A stretch of DNA of 30,064 nucleotides from Coleofasciculus chthonoplastes F2-STO-03 (GTDB taxonomy: Bacteria > Cyanobacteriota > Cyanobacteriia > Cyanobacteriales > Coleofasciculaceae). The stretch lies in NCBI GenBank assembly GCA_040222015.1, contig JAVJWO010000198.1, forward strand, positions 1-30,064. The letters run 5' to 3'. Made by a program: the position numbers and the translations under genes. Shown piece after piece: positions 1 through 20,289 of the stretch (positions are counted from its first letter, which is position 1; each line of letters starts with the position of its first letter). The notes below the pieces were generated by a model. That model worked only from the letters and a program-made list of their open reading frames with translations. It was not told the DNA's origin and did not search any database.

Positions 1-3000
1 CCGCAGTCGGGAGACCACTTGAGTGGCGAGGAGGGAATGTCCCCCCAGTTCAAAGAAGTTGTGATGGATACCTACTTGCGGCTGTTTCAGGACTGTTGCG
101 AATACATTGGCGATTATTTCTTCTTTTTGTGTTCTTGGCGGCGTCCAAGCCGACTGTGAAGTGAGATCAACTTTGGGTTCTGGCAAGGCACGGCGATCGA
201 GTTTGCCGTTGGGGGTCAAGGGTAAAGCCTCTAAGAACACAAAGGCGGCAGGTATCATGTATTCGGGCAATTTCTGCCGGAGAAAGCCCTGTAGTGTACT
301 GATGGTCGGTTGTTCTCTCTGATGCACCACATAAGCGACCAAACGTTTATGCTGATCAGCGTCTTCCCAAACTAAGACCGCCGTCTCCTTGACCTGTGGG
401 CATTGAGTCAAAACAGTTTCTATTTCCCCGAGTTCGATGCGGAAACCTCGAATTTTCACCTGATAGTCCATCCGACCCAGAAATTCAATTGTGCCGTTGG
501 GCAGGTAGCGAACCCGATCGCCTGTACGGTACAGTCGGAGTCCTGGCTCTTGGGCAAAGGGATCACAGATGAAAACTTCTGCTGTTCGTTGCGGATTGTT
601 CAGATAGCCTCGTCCTACACCGTGACCGCCAACATAGAGTTCTCCGGTTACTCCTATGGGTAGCGGTTGCAATTGAGCATCCAACACATACAATCTTGTA
701 TTCCCTACTGGACGACCAATGGGCATATTTAACACCTCGGTCGTTGGCGGCTGGAAAATAAAGTGATGAGTGACATCATCAGAACATTCAGTCGGACCAT
801 AGGCATTGACCATGGGAATGGTCGGATAGTAGTCGAACCACTGACGACACAACTGGGGGGGCAATGCTTCTCCTGTCAGGATTAACCATCGTAATGTTGA
901 CAAGTCAAACCGTTGGTGCTGCTCACCCTTGAGGTCTTCAATCACCATCCGTAACAAGGATGGCACGATCTCCAAAAGGGTGATTTGCTGTTCCTCGACT
1001 TGAGAGAGCAGTTGAGTCGATTGTGCCGCCACCTCATCATTGAAGATATACACTCGACCGCCGACTAACAGGGCGACGAGGAATTGCCAAACTGAAATAT
1101 CAAAACTCTGGCGGGCATTTTGGGCGACGCGATCGCGATGGGTCAGTTGCAGGTCTTGGATTTTGGCATATAAGTGATTCACCATGCCCCGATGTTCGAC
1201 CATTGCTCCTTTCGGGACTCCTGTCGAGCCTGATGTATAAATCACATAGGCGAGATGATGGGGCTGACAGTCAATGGTCAGGTTTTCGGCTGACTGCTGC
1301 TCCCACAAGTCTTCCAGGTGCAATAGTTTGGGGTGGGCTGGTGAACCGATGCGGTTTAGGGCTTGATCGAGAACAGATTCCAAGGGTTGGGATACCAACA
1401 CAAAGGGGGCTTGACTCTGCTGTAAAACCTCACTGATGCGTTGTTGAGGATACTGGGGATCGAGGGGAAGATAGGCTCCACCTGCCTTGAAGATGGCGAT
1501 CATGCCCGTCAAGAACTCAATGCTGCGATCGGCGAATAGTGCGACTAGGGTTTCGGATCGGACGCCATACTCCACTAGCCGCCTTGCCAAACCATTGGCT
1601 CGGCTGTTCAGTTCGGCATAGGTTACCTGTTTCCCCTCACATACAACGGCTATTGCCTCTGGGGTTTGTTCCACCTGCTTTTCAAACAGTTGATGGATAC
1701 ACTGATCCTGAGGATAATCGTTCTGGGTGTTGTTCCATTCCACGAGCAATTGCTCTCGTTCCCCATCGGTGAGCAGCGGAATTTGCCGGACTGGACAATC
1801 CGGATCGTCAACAATCGCCGCTACCATGGTCTGGAAATGCTCACTCATACGACGAATCGTGTCCGCCTCAAATAAGTCGCTGTTGTACTCCCAGGTTCCG
1901 AATAATCCTGACTCTCCCTCGCCCATTGTCAACATCAGATCAAATTTGGCGATGGTGTGTTCAGGTGTCAATGGTGTCAGGGTCAACTCTGACAACTCCA
2001 GCGTGCCAACGGGCGCATTCTGAATCTCAAACATCACCTGAAACAGGGGGTTGTGACTCAGGCTGCGATCGGGTTGCAAGGCTTCAACGAGCTGTTCAAA
2101 GGGTAAGTCTTGGTGATCATAAGCCTCTAGCGCCATCTGTCTTACCCGTTGTAACAACTCCCAAAAGCTAGGATTACCCTGTAAGTTAATCCGCAGCACT
2201 AAGGTATTAACAAAGAAGCCAATCAGTGGCTCTATCTCTTTCCGATTACGATTAGCAATAGAGGACCCAACCAGAATGTCCGGCTGATGACTGTAGCGTG
2301 ACAACAGCAGCGCAAAAGCGGCGAGCAGCGTCATGAACAAGGTGGTTCCAGCCTGCTGACTTAAGCGTCGGATTTTTTGGGTCAGATCAGCACTGAATTG
2401 AGATCGATGCCTATTCCCTTGAAAGGTTTGCACGGGAGGACGAGGTCGATCTGTGGGCAACTCTAGCAGGGGTGGCGCTCCCGCTAGCTGGTGTTTCCAG
2501 TAGTTGAGTTGAGACTCTAGCACGTCTCCCCGCAGCCATTGCCGTTGCCATTCCGCGAAGTCAGCATACTGGATGGGTAACTCGGCGAGGGGAGAAGATT
2601 CTCCTCGACAGAAGGCTTGGTAGAGTGTTGACAACTCTCGAATAAAAATCCCTACCGACCAAACGTCTGCCACTATATGGTGTACAGTTATTTGTAAAAT
2701 ATGAGAATAGTCAGCTAGTTGTAATAAGTTCACTCTCAGCAAGGAGTCTGAGGAGAGGTTAAAAGGTTTGCTAGCTTCTTCGCTGATATGCTGTTGTACC
2801 TTACCCCATTGCGCCTCTGACGCCATCCCCTTCAAGTCCAGTACCAATAAAGATAGGGGTGCAGAGCTAGCAATGACTTGACAGGGTAAGCCATCAATAA
2901 CCTTAAAGGTTGTTCGCAAAACTTCGTGACGTTGCTGGATTTCCTGTATCGCGCTCTCTAACGCCGCAATATTCAGTTGACCCTCTAGCTGTAATGCACT

Positions 3001-3111
3001 CGAAATATTGTAAGACGTGTTACCCGGTTCTAACTGATCGAGAAACCAGAGTCGTTCTTGAGCAAAGGATAAGGGAAAAATATACAAATCTTCTGAGACT
3101 AGATCAACCAT
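1..3111 (-). CDS. Non-ribosomal peptide synthetase, N-terminal part (condensation-adenylation-PCP); runs off the left edge
   Basis: Manual minus-strand translation from ATG 3111: MVDLVSEDLYIFPLSFAQERLWFLDQLEPG (C1), HHIVADVWS (C active site), LIGFFVNTLVLR, YVIYTSGSTGVPKG (A3), FDISVWQ (A4), NAYGPTE (A5), NFFELGGHSLLATQVVSRLR (PCP) ending at base 1 in the same frame. No stop in the window, so it is missing from the ORF track. Confidence 0.97.
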   Translation of the reverse strand, partial: MVDLVSEDLYIFPLSFAQERLWFLDQLEPGNTSYNISSALQLEGQLNIAALESAIQEIQQRHEVLRTTFKVIDGLPCQVIASSAPLSLLVLDLKGMASEAQWGKVQQHISEEASKPFNLSSDSLLRVNLLQLADYSHILQITVHHIVADVWSVGIFIRELSTLYQAFCRGESSPLAELPIQYADFAEWQRQWLRGDVLESQLNYWKHQLAGAPPLLELPTDRPRPPVQTFQGNRHRSQFSADLTQKIRRLSQQAGTTLFMTLLAAFALLLSRYSHQPDILVGSSIANRNRKEIEPLIGFFVNTLVLRINLQGNPSFWELLQRVRQMALEAYDHQDLPFEQLVEALQPDRSLSHNPLFQVMFEIQNAPVGTLELSELTLTPLTPEHTIAKFDLMLTMGEGESGLFGTWEYNSDLFEADTIRRMSEHFQTMVAAIVDDPDCPVRQIPLLTDGEREQLLVEWNNTQNDYPQDQCIHQLFEKQVEQTPEAIAVVCEGKQVTYAELNSRANGLARRLVEYGVRSETLVALFADRSIEFLTGMIAIFKAGGAYLPLDPQYPQQRISEVLQQSQAPFVLVSQPLESVLDQALNRIGSPAHPKLLHLEDLWEQQSAENLTIDCQPHHLAYVIYTSGSTGVPKGAMVEHRGMVNHLYAKIQDLQLTHRDRVAQNARQSFDISVWQFLVALLVGGRVYIFNDEVAAQSTQLLSQVEEQQITLLEIVPSLLRMVIEDLKGEQHQRFDLSTLRWLILTGEALPPQLCRQWFDYYPTIPMVNAYGPTECSDDVTHHFIFQPPTTEVLNMPIGRPVGNTRLYVLDAQLQPLPIGVTGELYVGGHGVGRGYLNNPQRTAEVFICDPFAQEPGLRLYRTGDRVRYLPNGTIEFLGRMDYQVKIRGFRIELGEIETVLTQCPQVKETAVLVWEDADQHKRLVAYVVHQREQPTISTLQGFLRQKLPEYMIPAAFVFLEALPLTPNGKLDRRALPEPKVDLTSQSAWTPPRTQKEEIIANVFATVLKQPQVGIHHNFFELGGHSLLATQVVSRLR

Positions 3112-3175
3112 ACTGTAACGATTTATCCAATTATTAATGATGATTAACAGAGAATCGCTGTCCAACCCTTGTTCA

Positions 3176-4894
3176 TTAACATCGATTCAATAATAAATTT
3201 ATTTCTGGCAATATTTCATGTTCAACTCTACCATTATTTAATTTGATAATTCGATCGGATAAATGATAATACTGATCATCATGAGTAATCGCGATAACAA
3301 GTTTTACTTTCTGTTTCAAGTCAGGCAATATTTGCGTATAAAAAACGGTCTTAAAGAGAGGATCTTGATCGGCAGCCCATTCATCAAACACGTATATCGG
3401 TCGATCTTCTAGGTAAGCAGAGAGCAAGGCAAGACGTTTTCGCTGCCCCTGAGATAACGTTGTGGTTGACAGTACACCATTATTTACTTTTACCTTGTCA
3501 TCAAGTTGCAGCTTAACCAGATAATCATGAATTTTTTCGTCCGATATGATTTTACCGGAATTCAACCAATTCTCAAATAGGTAAAAGTCGAAGAAAACCA
3601 CCGAAAAATACTGTCGATACCAATCAGTATTTTCAGCATTGATTTCTTTACTGTTGAGTAATATCTTACCATCTACTGGACTATAAAGACCCGTTAAAAT
3701 TTTGATCAAGGTTGACTTTCCACTTCCATTGCCTCCAATCAGAAAAACAATCTCTCCTGGGTAGAATTTTAAATCAATCGGTCCGACTGTAAAAACAGAA
3801 TCATCAATTTTATTTTGATAGGTATAAGTAACATGGCTCAGTTCTAGGCACTGGAGCTGTAGGGGAGGAATTAACTGATCGGACTGAGGCAAGTTGTGGC
3901 TAACACTATTGGTAGACGTCTGTTCTTCACTACTGGTTAAACTCAACCTATCTTGATCACTGTCTTCGTTAGCAGACATTAATTTCAAATCAAGCAACTT
4001 AATCTTGTCCAGCGCCACCCTAGCCTTACTGAATGTAGTTAACGAAGTCATGATAGAATCTAACGGCACAATCAGATAAGTAATCGTCAAGACGTAACCG
4101 GATAAAACATGACTTTGAGCATTGTTTAAAGTGGGCAATAGAAAAATAACTATACCAATTGCCACAAAAAAAAGAATTTGCGCCCAGCTTGTTGCTACCG
4201 CAAATAGACTCATGCCAACCACATTCTCATGTCGGTAGGATTGTGCCGTTTCTTGCAGATCTTGCAACAGGATTTCTCGTTTTGTCTCATGAAGCATTAA
4301 CTCCTTGGTTCCCTCGGTGATACCGCGAAACTCTTTAAACAGTTGATCCTGCTGTTCCCGAGCCAAACTCATAAATTCTCTTGCCTTATTAGCGGTTAGC
4401 TGATAACTTCCGATTCCGATTACCAGAAAAACTAGGATAAGCATAAACACGGTAGGAGAAAGCCAACATAGATAAACCAAGCAACTGATGACAATAACAG
4501 CATTAACACAGACTCTAGGTAAAATTATAGCGACACTAGAGATTGACTGAATATCATCAGTCAGTGTCGCCAGAATCCGATGATTGCCCAGCTTTTCTAA
4601 ATGAGATAAAGGCGAGTCTAGAATCATTTTGCTCAAAAGCATTCTCAGATTTAAAATAACTTCTTGTGCCAGCGATATCAATAGAGTTTGAGAAAGGATG
4701 TTGCTAATAAAACGGAAAAAGCAGAGAGAAACAAAACCAATAATGATTAATTTATTCACCCCTAAAGGATCAACTTCACTATTATTAATAATCGCAATGA
4801 TCCCTGTCGTCGTTAGTCCGCTGAGTAAGCTGGTGATAGCGGCAATAACAAGAACTTTCCAAGAGGACGTGACAAGAAGACGAATGAGATACAT
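3176..4894 (-). CDS. Cyclic peptide export ABC transporter (SyrD/PvdE/YojI family), fused TMD+NBD
   Basis: About 6 TM segments, Walker A GGNGSGKST, family signature LSQGQRKRLALL and DRPIYVFDEWAADQDP. Confidence 0.95.
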   Translation of the reverse strand: MYLIRLLVTSSWKVLVIAAITSLLSGLTTTGIIAIINNSEVDPLGVNKLIIIGFVSLCFFRFISNILSQTLLISLAQEVILNLRMLLSKMILDSPLSHLEKLGNHRILATLTDDIQSISSVAIILPRVCVNAVIVISCLVYLCWLSPTVFMLILVFLVIGIGSYQLTANKAREFMSLAREQQDQLFKEFRGITEGTKELMLHETKREILLQDLQETAQSYRHENVVGMSLFAVATSWAQILFFVAIGIVIFLLPTLNNAQSHVLSGYVLTITYLIVPLDSIMTSLTTFSKARVALDKIKLLDLKLMSANEDSDQDRLSLTSSEEQTSTNSVSHNLPQSDQLIPPLQLQCLELSHVTYTYQNKIDDSVFTVGPIDLKFYPGEIVFLIGGNGSGKSTLIKILTGLYSPVDGKILLNSKEINAENTDWYRQYFSVVFFDFYLFENWLNSGKIISDEKIHDYLVKLQLDDKVKVNNGVLSTTTLSQGQRKRLALLSAYLEDRPIYVFDEWAADQDPLFKTVFYTQILPDLKQKVKLVIAITHDDQYYHLSDRIIKLNNGRVEHEILPEINLLLNRC

Positions 4895-4966
4895 GGTTTT
4901 GGGGGCTTAACTAATTCCAATAAAAAGCGATTGGCTTGGATATTGTATCGATTGCTTGTCACTCCC

Positions 4967-6019
4967 TTACTCGTCTTCACGCTGTAACCATGACACTGGG
5001 AAAAATGATGTCAGCCTAGTCCCTAAATTAGTCTCATTTGCTAGTTGGTAGGCTAGTTGTCCTAAAGCCATGTCAAGTACGCCAAGTCCGAAGGGACTAA
5101 ATACAGCAATTTTACTGTTATTTTGCCGAGGAGCAGCCACACCATTGAGGATATCACTAAGGGGACATCTGATGAAATCTCGATTCCCGGTTTTTTGTTC
5201 AGCCAGATGAATCGATGTTTGCGCCCGACACACATGATCGATATCATCAACAATGTTGTCCACAGATAAGATTATTTCAGGGGACAAGTCTCGTAGGGAC
5301 GTGTGTAAAATAATACTATCAGATTGGCAGGCTGAAATGTCAACTATATGGGGTTGGCTTGCTGTTGTTGCCAAGGCGATTACCGAGGAATGTTTAAATA
5401 CATCATCGGAATGATCAACAATTACCAGTTCGATTTTTTGAGATAATTGCTGACATTTACGTTTGAATTGCTCAGATTTTTCCCAACTTACATCATAAAG
5501 GAATAATGTTTCGATTTCCGGGCGAACCCTCAAAAGGAAGCGAACCGTCTCAAAATTAATTAAACCACAGCCAATCAAACCCACTGTAGCCAACGATTGC
5601 TGGTCTCGCAGGTAATGCGCTGCGAGTGCCGCACTAGCTGCCGTGCGCTTGGCACTAATAACAGAGCCTTCCATAATAGCTTGTGGACGTCCTGTTTCTG
5701 TCGAATTAATAATTAAAATAGCTGAAGCTCTTTCCATACCCTTAGCTAAATTGCCGGGAAAAGAAGCAATCCATTTAATGCCTGCTGTATTGATCTCACC
5801 GCCCAAGTAAGCTGGCAAGGCAATAATTCGTTCCTTGTTTTTATCCGGAAAACGTAAAAAACTAGAATGAGGCAGGGTGCTATCGCCTCGACCATGTATA
5901 TTATAGGTTAATTTGACCAGATCCAGGATTTCCTGTTCGCGGTTTTTGAAGAGAGTAATAATATCATCACCTTTGAGAAGAAGAACGTTATCCGTATTGC
6001 TTGTATTATAATTTTCCAT
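4967..6019 (-). CDS. sbnB: 2,3-diaminopropionate biosynthesis protein SbnB (ornithine cyclodeaminase family)
   Basis: RIIALPAYL, GIKWIASFPGN, MERASA, GLIGCGLIN NAD-binding motif; directly downstream of sbnA. Confidence 0.92.
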   Translation of the reverse strand: MENYNTSNTDNVLLLKGDDIITLFKNREQEILDLVKLTYNIHGRGDSTLPHSSFLRFPDKNKERIIALPAYLGGEINTAGIKWIASFPGNLAKGMERASAILIINSTETGRPQAIMEGSVISAKRTAASAALAAHYLRDQQSLATVGLIGCGLINFETVRFLLRVRPEIETLFLYDVSWEKSEQFKRKCQQLSQKIELVIVDHSDDVFKHSSVIALATTASQPHIVDISACQSDSIILHTSLRDLSPEIILSVDNIVDDIDHVCRAQTSIHLAEQKTGNRDFIRCPLSDILNGVAAPRQNNSKIAVFSPFGLGVLDMALGQLAYQLANETNLGTRLTSFFPVSWLQREDE

Positions 6020-6145
6020 GCTGGCTGTTTATTTAGTCTGGCAATGATTTCGGCAAACGCTAGTTCTTGCTAAAGTTTTAAAATTCAGGCTATTTTGTCC
6101 CTATTTTTTCATCAGAGTCTTCTGAATCAGTAACATTTCCTATTA

Positions 6146-7168
6146 TTAGTTCAACAGCGTGACATTCAACGTACCAAAGTGTTTTTCAACCCAACTATCG
6201 GAATATACAGTATCAAGGTAGCGCTCGCCGCGATCGCACAGAATCGCTGCACAAGTTGCCCCCTCTGGAATGTCTGCTCTTTTTTTCGCGATCGCACTGA
6301 TCACTCCCCCAGATGAGCCTCCCGCTAATATTGCCTCCCAACGGAGCAAATGGCGGCAGCCTACTACACATTCTAAATCAGATACATGGATATAGGCATC
6401 TTCTAGTCCCGGTTGGAACAATTCTGGCACTCGCGCTGCCCCATGTCCTGGTAAGAGTCGCTTGGCTCGTTTATCGCCAAAAATGACGCTTCCCTTGGCA
6501 TCAACAGCAATAATTTTTGTACTGAGGTTGTTACTTCTAATATATTCAGCGCAGCCACGGAGGGTGCCACAGCTACTGGTTGAACAAAATAAATAGTCAA
6601 GTTTTCCATTAAGGGATGTGACTATTTCGTGCATTGTCTGATGATGAGCAGAGGCATTATTTACGTTGGCATATTGATTACACCAAAAGCTATTCGGAAT
6701 AGAACTTAGCAAGAATTTAACTCGATCAATGCGAACGGGCAAAAAATCACCAGTGATGGGATCGGGCTTGGTCACCAGATCAACCTCTGCCCCATAAGCT
6801 TTGAGAATGTTAATATTTTGCTTGGTTGTTTTGGGATCAACAACACAGATAAAACGTAACCCTAGAAACGCACAGGTTTGCGCCAAGCCTATGCCTAAGT
6901 TCCCGGAACTCGATTCAATAATTGTACTGTTGGCTTGAATATCTCCTCTAAAAATCGCATTTTTAATAATATTAAAAGCTGAACGATCTTTAATACTACC
7001 TCCAGGATTAAACATTTCTAGTTTGCCAAAAAGTTGAAATTTAGCATCCTTGAAAACATGGTTTAATTTTACTAATGGCGTAGTTCCTATTGTCCCTAAA
7101 ACACCTTCATTGATTGAATTTATATCGATGAACGCATCTTCAACTGGATACTGCTTAGTTAATTTCAT
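6146..7168 (-). CDS. sbnA: 2,3-diaminopropionate biosynthesis protein SbnA (PLP-dependent, cysteine synthase fold)
   Basis: KLEMFNPGGSIKDR (PLP Lys), ESSSGNLG, GGSSG, DRGERYLDTVYSD; paired with sbnB. Confidence 0.92.
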   Translation of the reverse strand: MKLTKQYPVEDAFIDINSINEGVLGTIGTTPLVKLNHVFKDAKFQLFGKLEMFNPGGSIKDRSAFNIIKNAIFRGDIQANSTIIESSSGNLGIGLAQTCAFLGLRFICVVDPKTTKQNINILKAYGAEVDLVTKPDPITGDFLPVRIDRVKFLLSSIPNSFWCNQYANVNNASAHHQTMHEIVTSLNGKLDYLFCSTSSCGTLRGCAEYIRSNNLSTKIIAVDAKGSVIFGDKRAKRLLPGHGAARVPELFQPGLEDAYIHVSDLECVVGCRHLLRWEAILAGGSSGGVISAIAKKRADIPEGATCAAILCDRGERYLDTVYSDSWVEKHFGTLNVTLLN

Positions 7169-7320
7169 TTTTTCTAATTATCTACACGATTGGATTTGCT
7201 GAGATATCGCTATTTAATTTATTAACTCGCTTCCAGGGAAACATTCTTAAAAATTATCGAAACATATTGTGCCGCTTAAAATATACATAACACCACCGAT
7301 ACGGTATACACTAAACCGGA

Positions 7321-8136
7321 TTAAATTGTAGTATACCTATCATCTTTTTCCGGTTGTAATGGCGTGTAATCTCGGCAGACTAAAAATTCTGGTCGCCGTT
7401 GTTTCTTAGGGATGGGAATATTTTGGACGCTGCTGTAGGTAATAATAATTTGCCGACGATTGTAAGGAGAAATATTAGGCACAGAGGCGTGAGCTATATT
7501 GCCATGAAAAAACAGGACAGAACCTTTGGCACCAACAGGAGCGACAATCCCACGGTTTTTTGCCATTTTCTCAACATTATTATGGCTCAAACAGTACTTA
7601 AGATTAGCGCTGAAATTAGCTTGCCAATCGGCAGCTTCGCCATGACCATTTGATTCACTCGCTTCAACATCAATCAATCCATACTTGTGAGAGCCAGGAA
7701 TTAGATAGAGAGGACTATTGAACTGATTAACCTCATCCAAGAAAATACTGACATTTAATACCTCAGGACGAGGTAGACCATCTTCTTTATACCAAAATGT
7801 GTAGTCTTGATGCCAGGGCCACACATCACCTCGGAAAGCCGCTTTCATATTCACTTTAAACTGGTAAAGATAAACCCATTCGTTGAGAATTTGTTGAGCG
7901 GGCTGTACCAAACGATGGTGTTGAACCAAGCTCTTAAGAACTTGGCTATATTCGTGACAACCATGCAAGGCACGTACTGTTTTATTGTCGTTCTCTAAAA
8001 TCGTACCTGGAGCATCCTTGGGTAGCCTTTCAAGTTCTCTCTCTAGGTGGCTTATTTCTTGATGAGAGAAATAGTCACCAAGAAATAAGAATCCATTTTT
8101 TTCGTAATCTTTGCGCTGATTTTCCGATAAGAGCAT
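7321..8136 (-). CDS. Fe(II)/2-oxoglutarate dioxygenase, PhyH family; L-proline trans-4-hydroxylase-like
   Basis: YQFKVNMKAAFRGDVWPWHQDYTFWYKEDG with HxD motif, distal His in FHGNIAHAS and 2OG-binding Arg. Confidence 0.85.
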   Translation of the reverse strand: MLLSENQRKDYEKNGFLFLGDYFSHQEISHLERELERLPKDAPGTILENDNKTVRALHGCHEYSQVLKSLVQHHRLVQPAQQILNEWVYLYQFKVNMKAAFRGDVWPWHQDYTFWYKEDGLPRPEVLNVSIFLDEVNQFNSPLYLIPGSHKYGLIDVEASESNGHGEAADWQANFSANLKYCLSHNNVEKMAKNRGIVAPVGAKGSVLFFHGNIAHASVPNISPYNRRQIIITYSSVQNIPIPKKQRRPEFLVCRDYTPLQPEKDDRYTTI

Positions 8137-8381
8137 GATTGTTTAGCCCATATTTAAAACTTGTTGGCTTTTTTTCAGGAAATTACTCAGGGCGTTGCTA
8201 GGACAAGCCATCCGAATAATACTGATCAATATAATACACCATAATCTGGAAAAAGCAAAACTTTTTACGCCTTAATTATCAGATATGCTATTCCATTTTA
8301 TTTATCCACACAACCGGAATCTAGGTTAAACTGTGATTGCATGGTTTAGCTTGCTTACTCTCCCCATAAGCATCGGTATAC

Positions 8382-11424: not shown

Positions 11425-11441
11425 CTATTAAACCTGTTCTG

Positions 11442-11678
11442 TTAAACGACTTTGCTCACAGAATTATCCATGTTCTGGCGTAGGCTTTTCGGGCGCATAT
11501 CTGTCCAGACTTGCTGAATATAGCTCAGACATTCCGTCTGAGAACCCCGTTTGCCCCCATCCCACCAACCTAGAGGATTTTCCCAGTCGGCGGGCAAAAT
11601 GGAATACTGATGTTCGTGATTCTTGACAACTTTGTAAATTACCCGGTCTTCCTGATCAGCCTGGTTTTCCCTATTCAT
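11442..11678 (-). CDS. mbtH: MbtH-like protein (first conserved Trp replaced by Leu)
   Basis: YKVVKNHEHQYSILP...PLGW...CLSYIQQVWTDMRPKSLR; strong AGGAG RBS. Confidence 0.95.
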   Translation of the reverse strand: MNRENQADQEDRVIYKVVKNHEHQYSILPADWENPLGWWDGGKRGSQTECLSYIQQVWTDMRPKSLRQNMDNSVSKVV

Positions 11679-11706: not shown

Positions 11707-11745
11707 TCGGTTATGGTTCTGTTGGGTTGAAGGGATAGCCATTAA

Positions 11746-12905: not shown

Positions 12906-14984
12906 ATGCGCTACTTTGAAGAATACTGTGAAGTCAATCTTGAACCCGGTACTGCACCATTTACTTGGGTGTTTAGGAGTGAGGAAAAAATCCGCATCAG
13001 ATTTGGTGTCGCTGTTGATCAACATCCAGATTGCGGTCAAATTATCTATGAGTTGAATGATGGACAAGGATATTGCGATTCCCATCAAATTACAGCCGAG
13101 ATGGAAAGCGTTGTCGAAAATGGGTTCAAAATGTTTTCAGTCATCCTACCACCGATCAGTAGTGGGGGAGGATGTCGATACTGGCTGGGTTATTTAGATC
13201 AGTTCGGTAATGAGCATACCAGTCAGCACTCACGTTTTCTTTTGGTCTGCGATGAAGCGCCTCAGTCCATGGCTGAAATCCCATCGGTTTTCCTTGGGTT
13301 TGTTGACAATCAACCGTTGTATGGACCCAAGCCCGTTGTCGCCATGACACCTAGCCCTACTGATTGGAATGCACGTCTGTTTTACTCGATCATCATTGAT
13401 CGATTTGCTCGAGGCTCAGACCGCCATCGCACGGGTCTAGGCGCGGTCAAATACGATCCGTCTTGTCCATACGCTAGCCATGGTGGCACAATTCATGGTG
13501 TGATTGAGAAAATCAACTACTTAAAATCATTAGGAATACGAGCCATTATTCTCAGTCCTGTGTATGTCAACGCCGCTGACGGATACCACGGCTATCATCC
13601 CATCCACCTATTGATGGTTGAGCCACGTCTAGGAACACTAGCCTGTTTACGTGAACTGGTGGCTAAAGCCCATAAAGCTGACATCGCTGTAATTTTAGAT
13701 GTGGTTAATAATCACATCGCCGATAGTATTCAGTGGGAGGAATATGGAGGTCCTCCTGGTGGAGAATTCAAATACGTACACGGTGATGATACTGCTGTGA
13801 TGCCTTTTCCGGTAGAAGTCCGCAACACCTCGCTTTTCCACGGTCCGGAATACACCGATATGGTGAATCAAAGACTCTTTGGCTTCTTGGAAGATTGGCG
13901 TACAGAAACAAGCTATGTTCGCGAACTGCTGATTCAACACTTGAAGTACTGGATTGCTCAAACGGATATTGATGGCTTTCGATACGATTCAGCCCGTCAT
14001 GTTGGTCTAGATTTTTGGGAACTTTGCGTTGAGGAAATATCACGGTTTGCTAAGTACCTGGGTAAACATCAGTTTTTACAGATCGCCGAACACGCTGGAA
14101 GTAGCCACGAAGAATTGATTGCATATAACAGTGCCAAATTCTCAAATTTACTAGATTATCCAACCTACTATATTGTCAAGCACTCTCTTGTTGATGCCAA
14201 CTGGCTAGGGGGTTTTGCCGAATATTTTTGTGGAATTCTGACGCCATCACAGCCCTATCATGCGGGTTGGAGGAACAATATTATGTTCTTGGATAACCAA
14301 GACACAACTCGCATATTTCATGAATTCTTGAGTCGTATCCCCAATCAAGACCAGGCTCGCGTCCGTCTTCATTTTGCCATAGCTTGCTTGGTTCTCGGGC
14401 CTCAAATCCCTTCTATCTATCAAGGAACAGAGCAGGAATTTTCTGGTGCGCTCGGCATGCATCAACGAGAGGATACAGGAGATTGGATTGGTCATGATTG
14501 CTATGTCAGGGAAGATATGTTTGATAACCCTGCCTGTGTGTGGCATTTTGGTCTGATTAACCAAAAAAGTTTCGCTCCATATAGCAGGAATAACTCGACC
14601 TTTGTGCTGATTCACCAGCTTGCCGAAATTCGGTTTGAAAGTCGCTTAATTCAGAGTGGCAAGCGTACCCTACTGTGTTCGAGAAAGGATGGTCTTTGGT
14701 GTGTACTCATTCATGGGACGACTGATGAGCCGCCGCTCTTGGTGGCGATGAACCTTGGCTCAAAACCTGTCTCTGATCATGCTTTAACACTGCCTAAGTG
14801 GTATGGTGCGTTCGACGGAGTTGATATGCTGATGACGACGGCGGGCGGAGCATTCTATTTTGTGGAAGGGGGGCTGCGAATTCGACTTTCACCCTTCACA
14901 TTTGTGATCGGACAACTCTGGAAAGAATCTCAAAAAAGTGCGATAGTCGAGACAACGGTTACTGATATTATTAAACATGAATGA
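12906..14984 (+). CDS. Alpha-amylase family (GH13) glycoside hydrolase/transglycosylase
   Basis: IIDRF, YHGY, DVVNNH (region I), DGFRYDSARHV (II), AEH (III), FLDNQD (IV); no signal peptide. Confidence 0.9.
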   Translation: MRYFEEYCEVNLEPGTAPFTWVFRSEEKIRIRFGVAVDQHPDCGQIIYELNDGQGYCDSHQITAEMESVVENGFKMFSVILPPISSGGGCRYWLGYLDQFGNEHTSQHSRFLLVCDEAPQSMAEIPSVFLGFVDNQPLYGPKPVVAMTPSPTDWNARLFYSIIIDRFARGSDRHRTGLGAVKYDPSCPYASHGGTIHGVIEKINYLKSLGIRAIILSPVYVNAADGYHGYHPIHLLMVEPRLGTLACLRELVAKAHKADIAVILDVVNNHIADSIQWEEYGGPPGGEFKYVHGDDTAVMPFPVEVRNTSLFHGPEYTDMVNQRLFGFLEDWRTETSYVRELLIQHLKYWIAQTDIDGFRYDSARHVGLDFWELCVEEISRFAKYLGKHQFLQIAEHAGSSHEELIAYNSAKFSNLLDYPTYYIVKHSLVDANWLGGFAEYFCGILTPSQPYHAGWRNNIMFLDNQDTTRIFHEFLSRIPNQDQARVRLHFAIACLVLGPQIPSIYQGTEQEFSGALGMHQREDTGDWIGHDCYVREDMFDNPACVWHFGLINQKSFAPYSRNNSTFVLIHQLAEIRFESRLIQSGKRTLLCSRKDGLWCVLIHGTTDEPPLLVAMNLGSKPVSDHALTLPKWYGAFDGVDMLMTTAGGAFYFVEGGLRIRLSPFTFVIGQLWKESQKSAIVETTVTDIIKHE

Positions 14985-15046
14985 TAAATTTAGACATTAG
15001 TTCTTTTTGGGATTAATCTCCTTGGGGACGACTTGAAAAACAGCCG

Positions 15047-16255
15047 ATGAATGTCAATTCAGCTAATTGCCTCTTACCTGTTCCGTCTGGTTCCTTTGTG
15101 GTTCCAGGTTTAACGACTGTCTTATCCACAACCGAAGCACATCCCCTCGGATTTTCCCTGATTATTCCGACTTATAAAGAAGCAAAAAATCTTGCCAAGC
15201 TTGTCGAGCAATTGAGCCGATTGCTCGATTCGCAATTGGCGGGGGACTATGAACTGATTGTCGTCGATGACGATAGTCCGGACGATACCTGGAAAGTGGC
15301 GCAGGAACTCACGGCTGATTATCCTCAGCTACGAGTGATGCGGCGGATTGAGGAACGGGGATTGTCTACCGCTGTAATTCGAGGATGGCAAGTGGCGCGG
15401 GGAGAAGTTTTGGGGGTAATTGATGCGGATCTCCAGCATCCTCCAGAATTGTTATTGCAGCTATGGAGTCAGATCCAAGGGGGCGTCGATTTAGCCGTTG
15501 CGAGTCGCCACGTTGAAGGCGGTGGCGTGAGTGATTGGAGTATTATCCGCCGCTTTTTATCCCGTGGCGCTCAGATGATTGGGTTAATTCTGTTACCGGG
15601 AGTTATCGGTCGGGTTTCTGACCCGATGAGTGGTTATTTTATGGTGCGTCGTAACTGTTTAGTTGATCGCCCTTTAAATCCCCTGGGATACAAAATTTTG
15701 ATTGAAGTCTTGGGTCGAGGGAAAATTCCTGAGATTGGGGAAGTGGGGTATGTGTTTCAAGAACGTCAAGTGGGCGAAAGTAAAGTAACCTGGAAACAGT
15801 ATGTGGAGTATTTACAACACTTACTGCGCTTGCGTTTATCCCTAGGATATATTGGTCGATTTATTCGTTTTGGTCTAGTCGGCTTCAGTGGAGTTTTTGT
15901 CGATATGGCAATTTTTTATCTGCTGCGAGATAAACTGGGATTGGGATTAACGCTCAGTGCGGCTCTATCTGCTGAAGTCGCCATGTTCAACAATTTCTTG
16001 TGGAATGATGTATGGACATTTGGCGATATTTCTCAACATCAACCGGGATGGCGTCAGTGGTTTGAACGATTTGTGAAGTTTAATGGTATCTGTTTAGCCG
16101 GACTCATTCTCAATGTTTTACTCGTAAATTTGTTGTTTAATGTCTTTGGCATCAATGAATATGTTTCTAAGTTAATCGCGATCGCGGCGGTGACGGTGTG
16201 GAATTTCTGGATCAATCTTAAGCTGAGTTGGCGTGTAACCGATGTGCGGCAGTAA
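15047..16255 (+). CDS. GT2 polyprenol-phosphate sugar synthase (Dpm1-like) fused to a GtrA flippase domain
   Basis: IIPTYKE, VVDDDSPD, DADLQHPP, SDPMSGYF, GESK, then RFGLVG...NNFLWNDVWTF...WNFWIN GtrA domain. Confidence 0.92.
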   Translation: MNVNSANCLLPVPSGSFVVPGLTTVLSTTEAHPLGFSLIIPTYKEAKNLAKLVEQLSRLLDSQLAGDYELIVVDDDSPDDTWKVAQELTADYPQLRVMRRIEERGLSTAVIRGWQVARGEVLGVIDADLQHPPELLLQLWSQIQGGVDLAVASRHVEGGGVSDWSIIRRFLSRGAQMIGLILLPGVIGRVSDPMSGYFMVRRNCLVDRPLNPLGYKILIEVLGRGKIPEIGEVGYVFQERQVGESKVTWKQYVEYLQHLLRLRLSLGYIGRFIRFGLVGFSGVFVDMAIFYLLRDKLGLGLTLSAALSAEVAMFNNFLWNDVWTFGDISQHQPGWRQWFERFVKFNGICLAGLILNVLLVNLLFNVFGINEYVSKLIAIAAVTVWNFWINLKLSWRVTDVRQ

Positions 16256-16427
16256 TTCCTGCATTTTGAAAGAGTGCGATCGCAGACCCCAGAAACCGAA
16301 CACTTGACCTTTCTGACCTTCATGGAAATAAACACCTTACTTTTCTGACCTTTTCATCGAGGCAAAAAAATAATACTTATAGAAATATAGGTAATTCAAT
16401 TAATAAGTCTTGAAATTTAGGATGAGT

Positions 16428-17429
16428 ATGCAGACAACACAGAACAAAAATTCAGAAGCTGCTACCCGGACACAAAATCTCATAGATGTTGTTATTCCCG
16501 TTGCAGTCAAGGATTTACCCAAACTACCTATCTGTATCAGGCAACTATCTAGGAATTCTCTCACTCCAATCAACAAGATCTATATTGTTACTCAACAATT
16601 CATCTGCCAGCAAAAACGATATCTTGAACCCTCAGTTGTCTGGATTCCTGAAGAAAGCTATTCATTCAGTTTAGTTGATATTGAGCAATGGCTCATTAAC
16701 AAAGGAAATAAGTATAGTAATAGCTCTTGGTATTATCAGCAGTTACTAAAATTTTACATCTTTGATACAATTCCTAACTTACTCCCTAATACTCTAATTT
16801 TAGATGTAGATTTTTTTATTAGTCAGCCTCTTGCTTTCTTAACTAATCAGGGTCAAGCAATTCTCTCCTATGGATATCCTTTTAAGTGGTTACTTAACAC
16901 CAGAGACTACCCAAAAGAGAACCATCACAGTCATATTGAATTTGCTCGTCGATTTGTTCCACAATGGTTCCCCGTGAATCCATTTAGTGGTATGCATCAC
17001 CATATACTTTTCAAAAAAGAAATAATCACGAAACTTTTTTCTGTCGTTGAAAATCACCATCACCAATATTTTTGGCAGGCTTTTTTAGATAATGTTGAAT
17101 TTTACAAATGGAATGCTGCCTCGGAATATGTAATTTATTACCATTTTGCAATGAAATTTTTCCCGAAAACATTAATATCCAGATACTTGAAAAGTTGCGA
17201 CTTTATTCACGATCATCAAGAAAATAGTTTCACTCTAGATGTTGCTAAAAATATACTTGAACAGAGAATTTTTGACACTGTGGGTTGTCATGGTTTCTTG
17301 AATTTACGAGCAAGGCTCAAAACCATGGACTATATTCCTGATGATTTGAAAGAAAGAATGTTAACTTCAGAGCAGATTGTGTTTAAATTAATTTTGGATG
17401 ATGGTGTTTTAACGATAGAGGGACTCTAA
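16428..17429 (+). CDS. Putative GT-A fold glycosyltransferase-like protein (DUF6492-like); start may be 16410-16428
   Basis: IDVVIPVAVKD, WYYQQLLK, ILDVD (DxD), SEY motif; AT-rich. Confidence 0.6.
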   Translation: MQTTQNKNSEAATRTQNLIDVVIPVAVKDLPKLPICIRQLSRNSLTPINKIYIVTQQFICQQKRYLEPSVVWIPEESYSFSLVDIEQWLINKGNKYSNSSWYYQQLLKFYIFDTIPNLLPNTLILDVDFFISQPLAFLTNQGQAILSYGYPFKWLLNTRDYPKENHHSHIEFARRFVPQWFPVNPFSGMHHHILFKKEIITKLFSVVENHHHQYFWQAFLDNVEFYKWNAASEYVIYYHFAMKFFPKTLISRYLKSCDFIHDHQENSFTLDVAKNILEQRIFDTVGCHGFLNLRARLKTMDYIPDDLKERMLTSEQIVFKLILDDGVLTIEGL

Positions 17430-17432
17430 AAG

Positions 17433-18380
17433 ATGACTAACAATGATCAAGAAAAAGAAAATAAGGTAAGTGGGGTTCAATCCAGATCGCAGCTCGTCAA
17501 AAATTTCATTGAATCAGGCTTGGCTTTGGGGATAGAAACGGCAACTTTTCAGGGAGGAGATTTAGGTTTATTTGAAGGATACCTTAAAGATGATGTGATC
17601 TTTAAATACTCCTTGTTAGATGGATTTACTTGGTCGTATGCTGTGCAAGATTTCCTACTCAAGAAAATTTTTATCGATCAAAGAGGAACTTATATTGATG
17701 TTGGAGCAAACATTGGTTTGATCAGCATTCCTGTGGCGGAAAAGGGCAAAATAAAATGCTATGCCTTTGAACCTGAACCTAATAATTATAAATTACTTCG
17801 TCGAAACATTTTGGCTCATAACGTAGAGTCATTAATCGAGACCTATTCGATTGCACTTTTTTCAGAAAAAACACAGCTTCATTTTGAAGTGTGTTCTAGA
17901 AACTATGGAGATCATCGAATAAAACCCAATCAAAACTCTGAAATTAAAGAACACTATAATGAAGAAAGTCGCCAAATTATCAATGTCAACGCGGAAAAAC
18001 TAGATGATGTGCTTGATTTGAGACAGTTGAACTCACCCATTGTTCTCAAGGTTGATATTCAAGGTTCTGAAATACAATTTTTCAAAGGAGCCGAGAAATC
18101 TCTAGAATTAGTAGATTACTTAATTGTAGAGTATTGGCCTTATGGAATATTATATTTTGGAGATACTCTTGAATCATTCTTAGAGATTTTGAAAAAATTT
18201 CCTTTCGCAGCTTTCGTAGGATTATTTGATAGAGTTCGATCTGTAACAGTAGAACTCAAGCCAGTTGAGCAAGTTATTGAGGCTATCCGTGCTGAGGTTA
18301 ATCCTAAAAATATTGACCCCGATCAAGAAATTAATATTGTTTGTTCAAGAAATCCCACGTTCCCAGCAGAATTTAAATAG
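17433..18380 (+). CDS. FkbM family SAM-dependent methyltransferase
   Basis: YIDVGANIG, YAFEPEP, LKVDIQGSE, VEYWP. Confidence 0.92.
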   Translation: MTNNDQEKENKVSGVQSRSQLVKNFIESGLALGIETATFQGGDLGLFEGYLKDDVIFKYSLLDGFTWSYAVQDFLLKKIFIDQRGTYIDVGANIGLISIPVAEKGKIKCYAFEPEPNNYKLLRRNILAHNVESLIETYSIALFSEKTQLHFEVCSRNYGDHRIKPNQNSEIKEHYNEESRQIINVNAEKLDDVLDLRQLNSPIVLKVDIQGSEIQFFKGAEKSLELVDYLIVEYWPYGILYFGDTLESFLEILKKFPFAAFVGLFDRVRSVTVELKPVEQVIEAIRAEVNPKNIDPDQEINIVCSRNPTFPAEFK

Positions 18381-18470
18381 AGCGCTCCTAAATGAGTGGT
18401 GATATAGTATCTGACAAATTACCCATAATAAAAGATTTGGAGTTTTTTATTTTGTCCAAACTGATCAAGG

Positions 18471-20289
18471 TTACCAAACAGACCAAGGCGATTGTATTTG
18501 AGGTTCATCGTTGTACATAAATTGCTCAAATATCTGCTTCATTTCCTCTAAAGAAATATGACCATCTTGATTGAGATCGAGTGAATCAAAAGCAACTTTA
18601 GCATCTTGAATAGTACCAATTTTATAGGCTTGATAAAACATTTTTAGCTCATGGATAACAATTTGTCCATTGCTGTCGGTATCGATCATTTGGAAGAAAG
18701 TATCGACAAAATCGTGATCGAGCTTTCTTCCCATATATTCTAGCCATTCTTCGGCAGTGATCTTGCCATCTTTATCGGTATCCATTAAAGTTTGCAGTCT
18801 CTCGCCCAAGCCAATCCAATACGAATGAACAAGCCAATATTCAGAAGAACCCAAATTTAAACCCTGAATCTCGGCAATTGTATTGACAACTTGCTCAAAG
18901 TCGGCTCGTTCAATAAATCCATTTTTGTCGTAATCTAACAGCGTAAAAAGGCGTTTTAACTTACGTTGACGTTGATTATTAACAGCCATCGATAGCTGCG
19001 ACGATCTTGCCACTTTCCAGCTTATAATGCTCACGATCAGCATCAGTATCGTTTTATTCCAAAATGTCCACGAAGGACTTAAATTGCCAAAAACAAACCC
19101 ACTGAAAACGGGGCTAACAGTACAGGCTAACGCTCCAATAGCACCTGCAAAACTCAATATTTTAGCTTGTCGTTTTGCCCCAGCAGCCTGAGAAAGAAGG
19201 CTGTTTAATACCGCAGGTCTGCAAATATTAAAGCCAATTACTTGGATAACCAGTGCGCCTAAAACTAACGCTATGTTAGTTGAGAAGGGCATTATAAATA
19301 GTCCAAAAGCGGTTAAGATAGAACCCCAAAATAGTAAATTAGCTTCACCATAGCGGTGACTAAGTGGTCCGACTACTACACTTTGAACCGTTACACACAA
19401 TATGCCCCATAAGACATAGACATAGCCAATTTTTTGAGGACCCCAGTTAATCTGCTGTTGAATCCAAAGCGGCAAAATAGTAAATACTCCCATCAAGGAA
19501 AACCTAATCAAAAATGCTGATAATAGGAGTAGATGTATGGGGGGAGGCTGAACCAGCTCTGGCAAAGTTGACCAGTTATAGCAACCGCCATGGCTGTTAG
19601 GACACATCATTTATGTAGAGACGCGCCATGGCGCGTCTCTACAATGGTGCCGAACGTCCTAATCGATGTGTCTATTGCTATAAATGATGGTTTTGGCGAT
19701 TGCCTTTTTGGTTGTGACTCTGTTGGTTTCGATTCGGGTAGAGTCAACCAGGCAATGAGAAATCCTAGCAGCGCCATACAAGCAGCAATGAAACAGGGTA
19801 ACATAAAGTTGGATTGTTAGGATCGCTGCCAACTAACGCGCTACTCAGTCCAGGTCCAATCAAACAACCCAGTCCGGACGCTGCACCAATTATTCCCATA
19901 CTTTTAGTACGATTTTCATTAGTGGTAATGTCGCTGATATATATGGTTGCCAATAGAAAACTAACTGCCATAGTTCCTTCTAACATTCGGCAAACAAATA
20001 GCATCCATAGAGCAGTGGCTTGGCTCAACCACAAGTAAGCCAAACCACTACCAATAAGACTGAGTAACAACATGGGACGACGACCAAAGCGATCGCTCAT
20101 CGTCCCCCAGAATGGTGTAGTGATTAACTGGCTCAATGAATAGATGCTAAAGAGTAACGCGATCGTGCTAGGTGAAGCGTCAAACTTTAGACCGTAAAAT
20201 GGCACGAGGGGTACAATCAGACCATCTCCTATCGCATCTATCAATACAGTTAAAAATAGTACAATGTAAATAAGTTTTTTATTTTTCAT
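18471..20289 (-). pseudogene. TetA-like MFS transporter fused to a C-terminal 4-EF-hand domain; disrupted by a 1-bp frameshift (~19810) and a MITE
   Basis: N-half from ATG 20289 (GTMSDRFGRRP motif A), TM6 in a second frame (MLPCFIAA...LTLPES), C-half plus EF loops DYDKNGFIERAD, DTDKDGKITAEE, DTDSNGQIVIHE, DLNQDGHISLEE in a third frame. Correcting both lesions gives one ORF of about 571 aa. Confidence 0.88.
19579..19680. mobile_element. 102-bp MITE with TA target duplication and central GTAG palindrome
   Basis: TA|TAGCAA...TTAGGAC...TGTAGAGACGCGCCATGGCGCGTCTCTACA...GTCCTAA...TTGCTA|TA; removing it plus one TA restores ...PKPSF-NWSTLPE... in frame. Confidence 0.9.

What the first reader, a model, noticed from the sequence alone, without database searches (positions are those of the whole stretch)
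1..20289. Candidate undescribed NRPS cluster for a sulfonated, Dap/hydroxyproline-containing glycopeptide
Seen: NRPS, MbtH, type II TE and a cyclic-peptide exporter sit with three building-block pathways (SbnAB, a proline-hydroxylase-like dioxygenase, cysteate synthase) and three or four sugar-handling genes. Known: SbnAB make L-Dap, and cysteate synthase makes L-cysteate. Inferred: the product carries Dap, 4-hydroxyproline, cysteate and sugar(s). I do not recognise this combination from any characterised cyanobacterial cluster.
Basis: partly seen in the sequence, partly recalled or inferred. Interest (0 to 1): 0.88.

Follow-up and report, generated by a model that had tools for sequence, protein, structure and literature searches.

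The report
Sulfonated lipopeptide cluster in mat cyanobacterium
These genes are one arm of a 55-kb inserted gene cluster in a mat-forming cyanobacterium that most likely builds an as-yet-undescribed fatty-acid-capped eight-residue peptide carrying a sulfonic-acid amino acid, a thiazole ring and probably a sugar.

Summary
The genes are real, but the window holds only the right arm of the cluster. The rest lies on G000 contigs C200 and C197, and the whole cluster is contiguous in a same-genus genome (G002; Coleofasciculus). It is a ~55-kb island, missing at this site in 5 of 5 other congeners, encoding FAAL-PKS plus eight NRPS modules. Predicted product: 2,3-dihydroxyacyl-Thr-thiazole-D-cysteate-Hyp-Asp-Dap-Asp-(beta-OH-)Asn/Gly. 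Each precursor pathway has a matching module. The cysteate module's code is identical to that of the cysteic-acid module of discodermin. The Hyp and Dap codes recur beside homologous hydroxylase and SbnAB genes elsewhere. GT39, amylase and GT2-GtrA resemble the hassallidin HasF/B/D/E set, so glycosylation is likely but less secure. The line ends in T-E with no built-in thioesterase, so release is unexplained. Neither genome has a detectable TonB receptor, which argues against a siderophore. Window 16,410-20,289 is a variable add-on with a broken MFS gene. Cysteate peptides are known from Streptomyces and Entotheonella; my searches found none from cyanobacteria, but MIBiG could not be searched and no compound was detected. 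Verdict: a new variant of a known kind.

The parts
1..3165 (-). NrpsA, first module C(LCL-type)-A-T; A code DIWEITADDK, predicted L-Dap. The gene runs off the contig; in homologs it continues C-A-T-C-A-T-E (3647-3649 aa). The likely start is the ATG 18 codons into the ORF.
3176..4894 (-). Cyclic-peptide ABC exporter (PvdE/SyrD type)
   Evidence: TIGR01194 over cut-off
4967..6019 (-). SbnB, L-Dap biosynthesis
   Evidence: TIGR03944 over cut-off
6146..7168 (-). SbnA, PLP enzyme, L-Dap biosynthesis
   Evidence: TIGR03945 over cut-off
7321..8136 (-). 2OG-Fe(II) dioxygenase, probable free-proline trans-hydroxylase
   Evidence: Hyp-type A codes next to homologs
8382..9713 (+). Cysteate synthase (threonine-synthase family)
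   Evidence: TIGR03844 over cut-off; PDB 9k3c cysteate synthase E 2e-106
9790..11424 (-). GT39/PMT_2 membrane glycosyltransferase, HasF-like (52-57% to cluster-type homologs; best hits 40-43% to resident paralogs)
11442..11678 (-). MbtH-like protein
   Evidence: PF03621
11746..12522 (-). Stand-alone type II thioesterase (RifR-like); the only TE in the cluster
12906..14984 (+). GH13 alpha-amylase-like protein, HasB-like (61-78% to homologs, several beside NRPS clusters)
15047..16255 (+). GT2 + GtrA fusion (HasD/HasE-like); right boundary of the island and a direct repeat of the resident copy at the left boundary
16410..17429 (+). DUF6492 protein; variable add-on outside the conserved island
17433..18380 (+). 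FkbM-family methyltransferase; variable add-on
18471..20289 (-). MFS transporter fused to EF-hands, broken here by a frameshift near 19,810 and a 104-bp repeat insertion at about 19,577-19,680; intact 571-aa homologs exist

Best explanation
A functional, horizontally acquired FAAL-PKS-NRPS island makes an exported, acidic lipo-octapeptide. A fatty acid is loaded by the FAAL, extended once, alpha-hydroxylated by the luciferase-like monooxygenase and beta-reduced by the KR (the DH is split in two and probably dead), giving a 2,3-dihydroxyacyl cap. NrpsB adds Thr and a Cys-derived thiazole. NrpsC adds cysteate and epimerises it to D. NrpsD adds hydroxyproline and an acidic residue (probably racemase-made D-Asp). 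NrpsA adds Dap, the same acidic residue again, and Asn (beta-hydroxylated, G000) or Gly (G002). The GT2-GtrA/GT39 pair then attaches a hexose from a lipid-linked donor to a hydroxyl group. The product is a surface-active defence or signalling compound rather than a siderophore. Shown: gene content, domain order, codes, island boundaries, purifying selection. Inferred: substrates, protein order, glycosylation and role. Release is unresolved (stand-alone TE most likely, terminal E-like domain possible).
For: G002 holds the whole cluster on one scaffold at about 95% nucleotide identity to C197+C200+C198, and 141-nt shared contig ends give the same path in G000. Domains. Cysteate: NrpsC code DSTKIGHVGK is identical to DscC_A8, the module that the authors assign to the cysteic-acid position of discodermin; both are followed by an E domain (PMC12858407 passages and supplement part 4). 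Asp-type A domains near cysteate synthases have Ala/Ser at position 236 in 10 of 11 (genomes) and 3 of 4 (metagenomes), against 6 of 118 in the nearest general homologs, where 108 of 118 have Leu. Hyp: DAHIVTHVVK or a close variant occurs in 4 of 11 loci fetched around hydroxylase homologs. Dap: the identical code lies beside SbnA/SbnB in L033. Thr and Asn codes are identical to codes listed for Thr and Asn modules in the same supplement, and the Gly and Cys codes are close to theirs. The Arg/His-pocket module is followed directly by a 56%-identical racemase in G084 and G200, where no cysteate synthase was found in the phylum search. G002 has Gly in place of Asn and only a broken 71-codon remnant of the beta-hydroxylase. 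The FAAL/KS/Ox/KR start gives a 2,3-dihydroxyacyl in cyanochelin B (PMC12628792 section 5). dN/dS is 0.08-0.47 in 18 of 18 valid rows. No TonB receptor was found in G000 or G002, against 3 of 3 other congeners tested.
Against: No compound has been detected, and all substrates are code-based predictions. The 11 cysteate-linked domains fall into only about 4 lineages, and 1 of 4 metagenome cases has Leu. Imacidin congeners carry Asp or Glu in place of cysteate, so the module may be promiscuous. The beta-hydroxylase gene sits directly upstream of nrpsC, as the hydroxylase does before the D-beta-OH-Asp module of cyanochelin B. The closest cyanobacterial cysteate synthases (0 of 6 named cyanobacterial loci; also G013, G020, G029) have no NRPS in the DNA fetched, so the enzyme has other uses. 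The same racemase subfamily also sits beside cysteate synthase in non-NRPS loci, so the repeated modules could load D-cysteate. The one Dpr code seen in print (LpcH_A5) differs from ours, and I recall a near-identical code being assigned to Dab. GT39 orthologs were found in only 3 of 12 amylase loci and GT2/GtrA in 2 of 12. No release domain is present in cis.
Confidence: 0.66

Rival explanations
1. The product is a cyanochelin-like amphiphilic siderophore. NrpsC loads Asp, the adjacent hydroxylase makes D-beta-OH-Asp, and cysteate synthase is incidental.
For: Same FAAL/KS/Ox/KR start with a Cys heterocycle, and a hydroxylase gene just before an Asp-like C-A-T-E module, as in cyanochelin B. 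The peptide is rich in acidic residues.
Against: PF00593 found no TonB-dependent receptor in G000 or G002. G002 has lost the hydroxylase while NrpsC keeps the same code, and the change that goes with the loss is Asn to Gly in NrpsA. The code matches a cysteic-acid module. The accessory genes are hassallidin-like.
Confidence: 0.08
2. The product is the same sulfonated lipopeptide but is not glycosylated. The sugar genes are passengers (GT2-GtrA is the integration repeat; the amylase and GT39 serve other ends).
For: The GT2-GtrA gene is 85-89% identical to a single resident gene in 5 of 5 cluster-free congeners and marks the island edge. Congeners carry 2-5 GT39 paralogs. The cassette is incomplete in most amylase loci.
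Against: This GT39 is closer to homologs in NRPS clusters (52-57%) than to resident paralogs. It is kept at dN/dS 0.29 inside the island, between cysteate synthase and MbtH. Its counterparts HasB/D/E/F belong to the cluster of a glycosylated lipopeptide.
Confidence: 0.16
3. The duplicated Arg/His-pocket modules load racemase-made D-cysteate, giving a di- or tri-sulfonated peptide.
For: Racemases 35-46% identical to ours sit next to cysteate synthase in L018, L029, L049, L154 and L174. The racemase has a weak CuyB cysteate-racemase hit.
Against: The CuyB score is 99.6 against a cut-off of 190, while asp_race is over its cut-off. The same module plus racemase occurs in G084 and G200, where no cysteate synthase was found. 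The downstream C domains group with LCL rather than DCL types in a quick tree.
Confidence: 0.06
4. The cluster is decaying or incomplete (it has lost its terminal TE) and makes no released product.
For: No cis TE. A 66%-identical relative of NrpsA (P0342) ends in TE after Dap-RH-Gly modules. The MFS-EF gene here and the hydroxylase in G002 are broken.
Against: The T-E end is the same in three full or partial NrpsA sequences (G000, G002, P0327). The terminal domain has dN/dS 0.15. Near-identical DNA occurs in several independent tidal-flat and mangrove metagenomes.
Confidence: 0.04

Closest known systems
Hassallidin (has) clusters of cyanobacteria
   Same: Accessory set: alpha-amylase (HasB), GT2 (HasD), GtrA (HasE), PMT-type membrane protein (HasF), Asp/Asn beta-hydroxylase (HasM), MFS and MbtH (PMC5834425 passages and supplement rows). 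Identities of 52-74% to homologs in loci with hassallidin-type NRPS codes. The 2,3-dihydroxy fatty acid of hassallidin is recalled, not read.
   Different: Different NRPS (8 modules versus 9; Thr-Cys-Cya-Hyp-Asx-Dap-Asx-Asn/Gly codes). It has a FAAL-PKS start, Cy/Ox domains, Dap/Hyp/cysteate pathways and a racemase, and no terminal TE.
Cysteate-containing nonribosomal peptides: discodermins (Entotheonella), imacidin, JBIR-95 and the S. lincolnensis peptide (Streptomyces)
   Same: The A-domain code is identical to discodermin DscC_A8, with an E domain. The imacidin cluster also encodes cysteate biosynthesis beside its NRPS (bioRxiv 10.1101/2025.10.02.680127, passages and section 6). JBIR-78/95 and the S. 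lincolnensis papers were seen only as reference-list entries.
   Different: Cyanobacterial host; PKS-extended lipid, thiazole, Dap, Hyp and glycosyltransferases; the discodermin cluster has no identified cysteate gene.
Cyanochelin B (Leptolyngbya siderophore)
   Same: FAAL-PKS with an in-line flavin monooxygenase and KR giving a 2,3-dihydroxyacyl; Cys heterocycle near the lipid; Asp-like C-A-T-E module with an adjacent hydroxylase.
   Different: No TonB receptor found in either genome; oxidised thiazole after Thr; cysteate-type code; glycosylation cassette; no reductive terminal domain.
Uncharacterised FAAL-PKS-NRPS clusters in G084 and G200, and NRPS P0342
   Same: G084 shares amylase, GT2, GtrA, GT39, MFS, FAAL, KS-AT, LLM-KR, an Arg/His-pocket module with the same C-terminal tail, and the racemase. 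P0342 is 66% identical to NrpsA with Dap-RH-Gly modules.
   Different: They end in TE and have other residues; no cysteate synthase, SbnAB or proline hydroxylase was found in the G084/G200 loci.
Laxaphycin/heinamide clusters (LxaN) and microcystin (McyF, side-chain-linked D-Asp)
   Same: In-cluster proline 4-hydroxylation (PMC8471579 passages); a stand-alone Asp racemase and omega-linked acidic residues (PMC3252866 passage).
   Different: Only single parts are shared. Sequence similarity to LxaN or McyB was not tested; the likeness of the Arg/His pocket to McyB is recalled and was not found.

Membership tests
FAAL-initiated PKS-NRPS lipopeptide cluster | FAAL-ACP loading followed by PKS and NRPS modules | tested here: met
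   FAAL-ACP-KS-AT-DH(N) and LLM-DH(C)-KR-ACP followed by NrpsB on C200 and in G002
FAAL-initiated PKS-NRPS lipopeptide cluster | Terminal release domain (TE or R) on the last module | tested here: not met
   The last module ends T-E, and the only TE in the cluster is the stand-alone type II enzyme
Hassallidin family | Four NRPS with nine modules for the hassallidin backbone | tested here: not met
   Eight modules with different codes versus the Thr/Tyr/Gln/Gly codes in G198, G277 and G105
Hassallidin family | HasB/HasD/HasE/HasF-type accessory genes | tested here: met
   Same families and sizes; 52-78% identity to homologs in NRPS loci. Named Has proteins were not themselves aligned.
Hassallidin family | Glycosylated, antifungal product | not testable with these tools
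   Needs chemistry
Cyanochelin-type beta-OH-Asp siderophores | Linked TonB-dependent uptake system | tested here: not met
   No PF00593 match in G000 or G002, and matches in 3 of 3 other congeners
Cyanochelin-type beta-OH-Asp siderophores | Asp modules with a conserved beta-hydroxylase | tested here: inconclusive
   The hydroxylase is present in G000 but a broken remnant in G002; the Asp-like module has a cysteate-type code
Cysteate-containing nonribosomal peptides | Source of cysteate encoded with the NRPS | tested here: met
   TIGR03844 over cut-off, inside the island, conserved in G002
Cysteate-containing nonribosomal peptides | A domain with a cysteate-type pocket | tested here: met
   Identical 10-residue code to DscC_A8; small residue at 236 enriched near cysteate synthases
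Cysteate-containing nonribosomal peptides | Cysteate shown in the product | not testable with these tools
   Needs LC-MS/NMR or A-domain assay

The most novel reading that the evidence does not exclude
The assembly line really ends in T-E, and the terminal epimerase-like domain (or the stand-alone type II TE working as the true cyclase) releases a D-terminated, sulfonated glycolipopeptide, for example by ring closure onto the Dap side-chain amine. That would be an undescribed NRPS off-loading mode, in the first cysteate peptide from a cyanobacterium.
Probability: 0.25. Interest if true: 0.72.

Novelty: new variant of a known kind. Interest (0 to 1): 0.55.

Why it matters
It predicts a specific, searchable compound from a dominant mat-building cyanobacterium, with a sulfonate amino acid for which my searches found no cyanobacterial precedent. 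It offers a usable mining rule (a small residue at A-domain position 236 in Asp-type pockets marks cysteate loading). It shows natural module engineering within one genus: a 3.4-kb module duplicated almost exactly, and an Asn/Gly pocket swap coupled to loss of a hydroxylase. It also poses a testable question about how a line ending in T-E releases its product. All component enzymes belong to known families, so this is new chemistry from known parts rather than a new kind of system.

Tried and rejected
Literature searches that found no description of this cluster: 'cysteate synthase'+'NRPS' 0 papers; cysteate+nonribosomal+adenylation 3 hold, 2 listed, neither cyanobacterial; six 10-letter codes 0 papers; cysteic acid+cyanobacterium+lipopeptide+thiazole 1 review, listing only; Coleofasciculus+NRPS terms, 30 of 1,690 listed, titles and abstract starts only, none on this cluster. 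Searches (hassallidin+amylase; proline hydroxylase H11) gave nothing useful. Vestola 2014 is not held. The McyB second-module code was not found. No copy of the full combination outside the genus: among 80 genome loci around cysteate-synthase homologs, 0 had the hydroxylase, GT39, GT2 or amylase at my thresholds, nor did any of the 80 metagenome loci; many are short contigs. Other congeners G001, G003, G005, G007, G008 gave only paralog-level matches (long matches about 63-70% identity) to the PKS-NRPS DNA and no amylase match. A missing terminal module elsewhere was sought: the further C-domain genes of G002 (C22, C56, C5) have no counterpart among G000's hits, though G000 is fragmented. The C-domain tree is the quick version, as the careful run did not finish. 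The promoter/terminator scan was at chance level (14 versus 10.4 +/- 3.8). Two metatranscriptome runs cover 25 and 23 of 30 bins at low depth with contigs only, which does not show transcription. One dN/dS row (NrpsC E sub-range) was out of frame through my coordinate slip and was dropped. The 221-aa protein upstream of the FAAL has no Pfam or NCBIfam hit and only weak 2OG-oxygenase leads. The scan's earlier findings held nothing. I did not run a complex prediction for NrpsD-NrpsA docking.
Full report
What is in the window. The window is the whole of contig C198 of a 7.7-Mb, 219-contig genome. Sources name proteins in the same 90% clusters as Coleofasciculus. The dioxygenase's best sequence and structure matches are trans-3/4-proline hydroxylase H11 (43-45% identity), ahead of the leucine hydroxylase GriE and ectoine hydroxylases. 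The NRPS contributes one module and runs off the contig.

The rest of the cluster. C198's left end shares 141 nt with C200's left end, and C200's right end shares 141 nt with C197's right end, as expected when an assembler collapses a repeat. One of 8 other same-genus genomes, G002, has a 98% cysteate-synthase match, and its scaffold C35 carries C197, C200 and C198 in one piece at about 95% identity. The two gaps are the same C-A-T module, present twice and identical at 3,397 of 3,408 nt. A full-length 3,647-aa database protein 96% identical to the window's NRPS (P0327) shows the same module in the Asn-type line. Gene order in G002: nrpsA (C-A-T-C-A-T-C-A-T-E), a 221-aa possible 2OG oxygenase, FAAL-ACP-KS-AT-DH(N), LLM-DH(C)-KR-ACP, nrpsB (C-A-T-Cy-A-Ox-T), nrpsC (C-A-T-E), nrpsD (C-A-T-C-A-T), racemase and MFS. 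G000 has an Asp/Asn beta-hydroxylase between nrpsB and nrpsC; G002 keeps only a broken 71-codon remnant of it.

Boundaries. In 5 of 5 congeners examined (G001, G003, G005, G007, G008) a resident GT39-GT2/GtrA pair is followed directly by the DNA that follows the cluster, so the site is empty (G008's contig gives only 100 bp past the junction). The island therefore runs from the end of the resident GT2-GtrA gene to the end of its copy at window 16,255, about 55 kb. The two copies are most alike at their 3' ends (94-97%), which fits integration by recombination through that gene (inferred). Window 16,410-20,289 lies beyond the repeat. It is absent in G002, present in metagenome X1, and partly deleted in X5. 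Its MFS-EF-hand gene is broken here by a frameshift and a 104-bp repeat that X1 and X5 lack. It is not required for the pathway, though the methyltransferase could tailor the product in some strains.

Substrates. Ten-residue codes were read by aligning each A domain to the window's own and picking positions by the standard motifs; the position scheme is from my own knowledge. NrpsB: DFWNIGMVHK (Thr) and DLYNLSLIWK (Cys, with Cy and Ox, hence thiazole). NrpsC: DSTKIGHVGK. NrpsD: DAHIVTHVVK and DARHLSLMVK. NrpsA: DIWEITADDK, DARHLSLMVK, then DATKVGEVGK (Asn) in G000 or DILQIGVVWK (Gly) in G002, through a local swap of the pocket region. The NrpsC code is identical to DscC_A8, which antiSMASH calls Asp but which sits at the cysteic-acid position of discodermin (PMC12858407: passages, supplement search and part 4 of file 1). 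Asp-type pockets within 10 kb of cysteate synthases carry Ala or Ser at position 236 in 10 of 11 genome cases (about 4 lineages) and 3 of 4 metagenome cases, whereas 108 of 118 nearest general homologs carry Leu and 6 of 118 carry Ala or Ser. Of 11 loci fetched around hydroxylase homologs (of 19 other genomes with a match), 4 have the DAH-type Pro-like code (one identical), 2 have only an ordinary Pro-type code, 2 have neither and 3 have no A domain in the DNA fetched. The Dap code recurs exactly next to SbnA and SbnB in Acidobacterial locus L033; against it, the Dpr code printed for lipodiscamide differs. The duplicated Arg/His-pocket module is the least certain. It is followed directly by a 56%-identical racemase in G084 and G200, where no cysteate synthase was found. 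None of 120 such modules is followed by an E domain in my motif count, and the next C domains group with LCL types (quick tree). I read this as racemase-made D-Asp, possibly side-chain-linked as in microcystin (PMC3252866 passage; the pocket likeness to McyB is recalled only).

Order and release. The FAAL-PKS feeds NrpsB. NrpsC ends in E with a typical communication tail, and NrpsD starts with a DCL-type C domain. NrpsD's tail and NrpsA's N-terminus resemble the tail and head of consecutive NRPS genes in G084 and G200, so NrpsA is last (inferred). NrpsA ends in an E-family domain with its catalytic motifs recognisable and under purifying selection (dN/dS 0.15). No NRPS-fused TE is in the cluster in either genome. 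A 66%-identical relative, P0342, has Dap-RH-Gly modules followed by TE, so the T-E end looks derived. Release by the stand-alone type II TE is the simplest guess; release by the terminal domain is the bolder one.

Sugar genes. The amylase has close homologs in 13 of 400 other cyanobacterial genomes. In 12 of these 13 loci fetched, three lie in NRPS clusters with hassallidin-type codes (G105, G198, G277), one in a partly captured cluster of that kind (G200), two in other FAAL-PKS-NRPS clusters (G084, G160), two near other NRPS genes and four with none in view. GT39 orthologs (52-57%) were in 3 of 12 loci and GT2/GtrA in 2 of 12. The hassallidin cluster has genes of the same families and sizes: HasB amylase 670 aa, HasD GT2 265 aa, HasE GtrA 154 aa, HasF PMT-like 547 aa (PMC5834425 passages and supplement rows). 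A lipid-linked hexose transferred by GT39 to a hydroxyl is the established logic of these families (own knowledge). I put glycosylation at about 75% given that the peptide is made.

Role. A siderophore role is unlikely, since no TonB-dependent receptor was found in G000 or G002 while 3 of 3 other congeners have one. This holds despite the cyanochelin-B-like start (PMC12628792 passages and section 5). All 18 valid gene or domain comparisons between G000 and G002 give dN/dS 0.08-0.47. Near-identical DNA was laid from two independent DNA metagenomes, one with a single 12.3-kb contig spanning the NRPS to the TE. An exported amphiphile for defence or mat surface chemistry is the most likely role (inference).

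What tells against co-evolution of cysteate synthase with NRPS in cyanobacteria. The enzyme is rare (4 of 401 genomes), and the other cyanobacterial copies examined sit with GH3 amido synthetases, racemases or decarboxylases, not NRPS. Across bacteria, 32 of 80 genome loci and 18 of 80 metagenome loci have an A or C domain in the fetched flank. The link here rests on its position inside the island and on the NrpsC pocket.

Novelty. Cysteate peptides and their clusters are known: imacidin (bioRxiv 10.1101/2025.10.02.680127, passages and section 6), discodermin, and two Streptomyces papers seen only as references. In-cluster proline hydroxylation is known from heinamides (PMC8471579 passages). 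Five searches found no description of this cluster or of a cyanobacterial cysteate peptide, but the library lacks most subscription chemistry journals and MIBiG was not available.

Noticed in passing
L018:7286-12157, L019:3652-8622, L024:1555-6558, L028:10010-12631, L029:8543-12555, L016:11925-15087: In several cyanobacteria and unclassified bacteria, cysteate synthase sits with a GH3 acyl-amido synthetase plus either a racemase or a PLP decarboxylase and a DedA protein. This suggests an undescribed N-acyl-cysteate or N-acyl-taurine pathway.
   Followed up: partly
L015:4023-14331 (G020:C80): Cysteate synthase with a TauD-methyltransferase fusion, two methyltransferases, a PLP decarboxylase, a PRMT-like methyltransferase and a 372-aa protein with no Pfam hit; possibly a methylated-taurine osmolyte pathway.
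   Followed up: no
G084:C93:107500-152200 and G200:C1:4241000-4273700: Related FAAL-PKS-NRPS clusters with an Asp module, an Arg/His-pocket module, a racemase and a terminal TE; G084 also has the amylase/GT2/GtrA/GT39 cassette. I could not assign them to a known compound.
   Followed up: partly
G002:C35:17510-20917 and 50471-53878: A whole NRPS module is present twice, identical at 3,397 of 3,408 nt, pointing to recent duplication or ongoing gene conversion; it explains the contig breaks in G000.
   Followed up: yes
window 19577-19680: A 104-bp element with TA ends, terminal inverted repeats and a central palindrome; 61 of 131 BLAST hits in G000 align over 80 bp or more, so it is MITE-like.
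   Followed up: partly
window 18471-20289: An unusual MFS transporter fused to a C-terminal EF-hand domain (571 aa when intact, P0190), possibly calcium-regulated.
   Followed up: partly
window 26279-27685: IS605-family TnpB-like gene, absent at this position in G002.
   Followed up: no
window 20925-29891: Flanking resident genes: DUF2267, a P-type cation ATPase, a PfkB kinase, an astacin/matrixin-like peptidase and a ParD-like antitoxin; a short tandem repeat ends the contig.
   Followed up: no
G000 and G002 whole genomes: No TonB-dependent receptor was found in either near-complete genome, unlike three congeners.
   Followed up: no
G000:C200:25058-25723: A conserved 221-aa protein between nrpsA and the FAAL gene (dN/dS 0.13) with no Pfam or NCBIfam hit and weak 2OG-Fe(II) oxygenase leads; its target is unknown.
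   Followed up: partly
L058-L060: A second Asp-type code family near cysteate synthases in Streptomyces also has Ala at position 236 (3 loci, one lineage), hinting at convergent pocket widening.
   Followed up: partly
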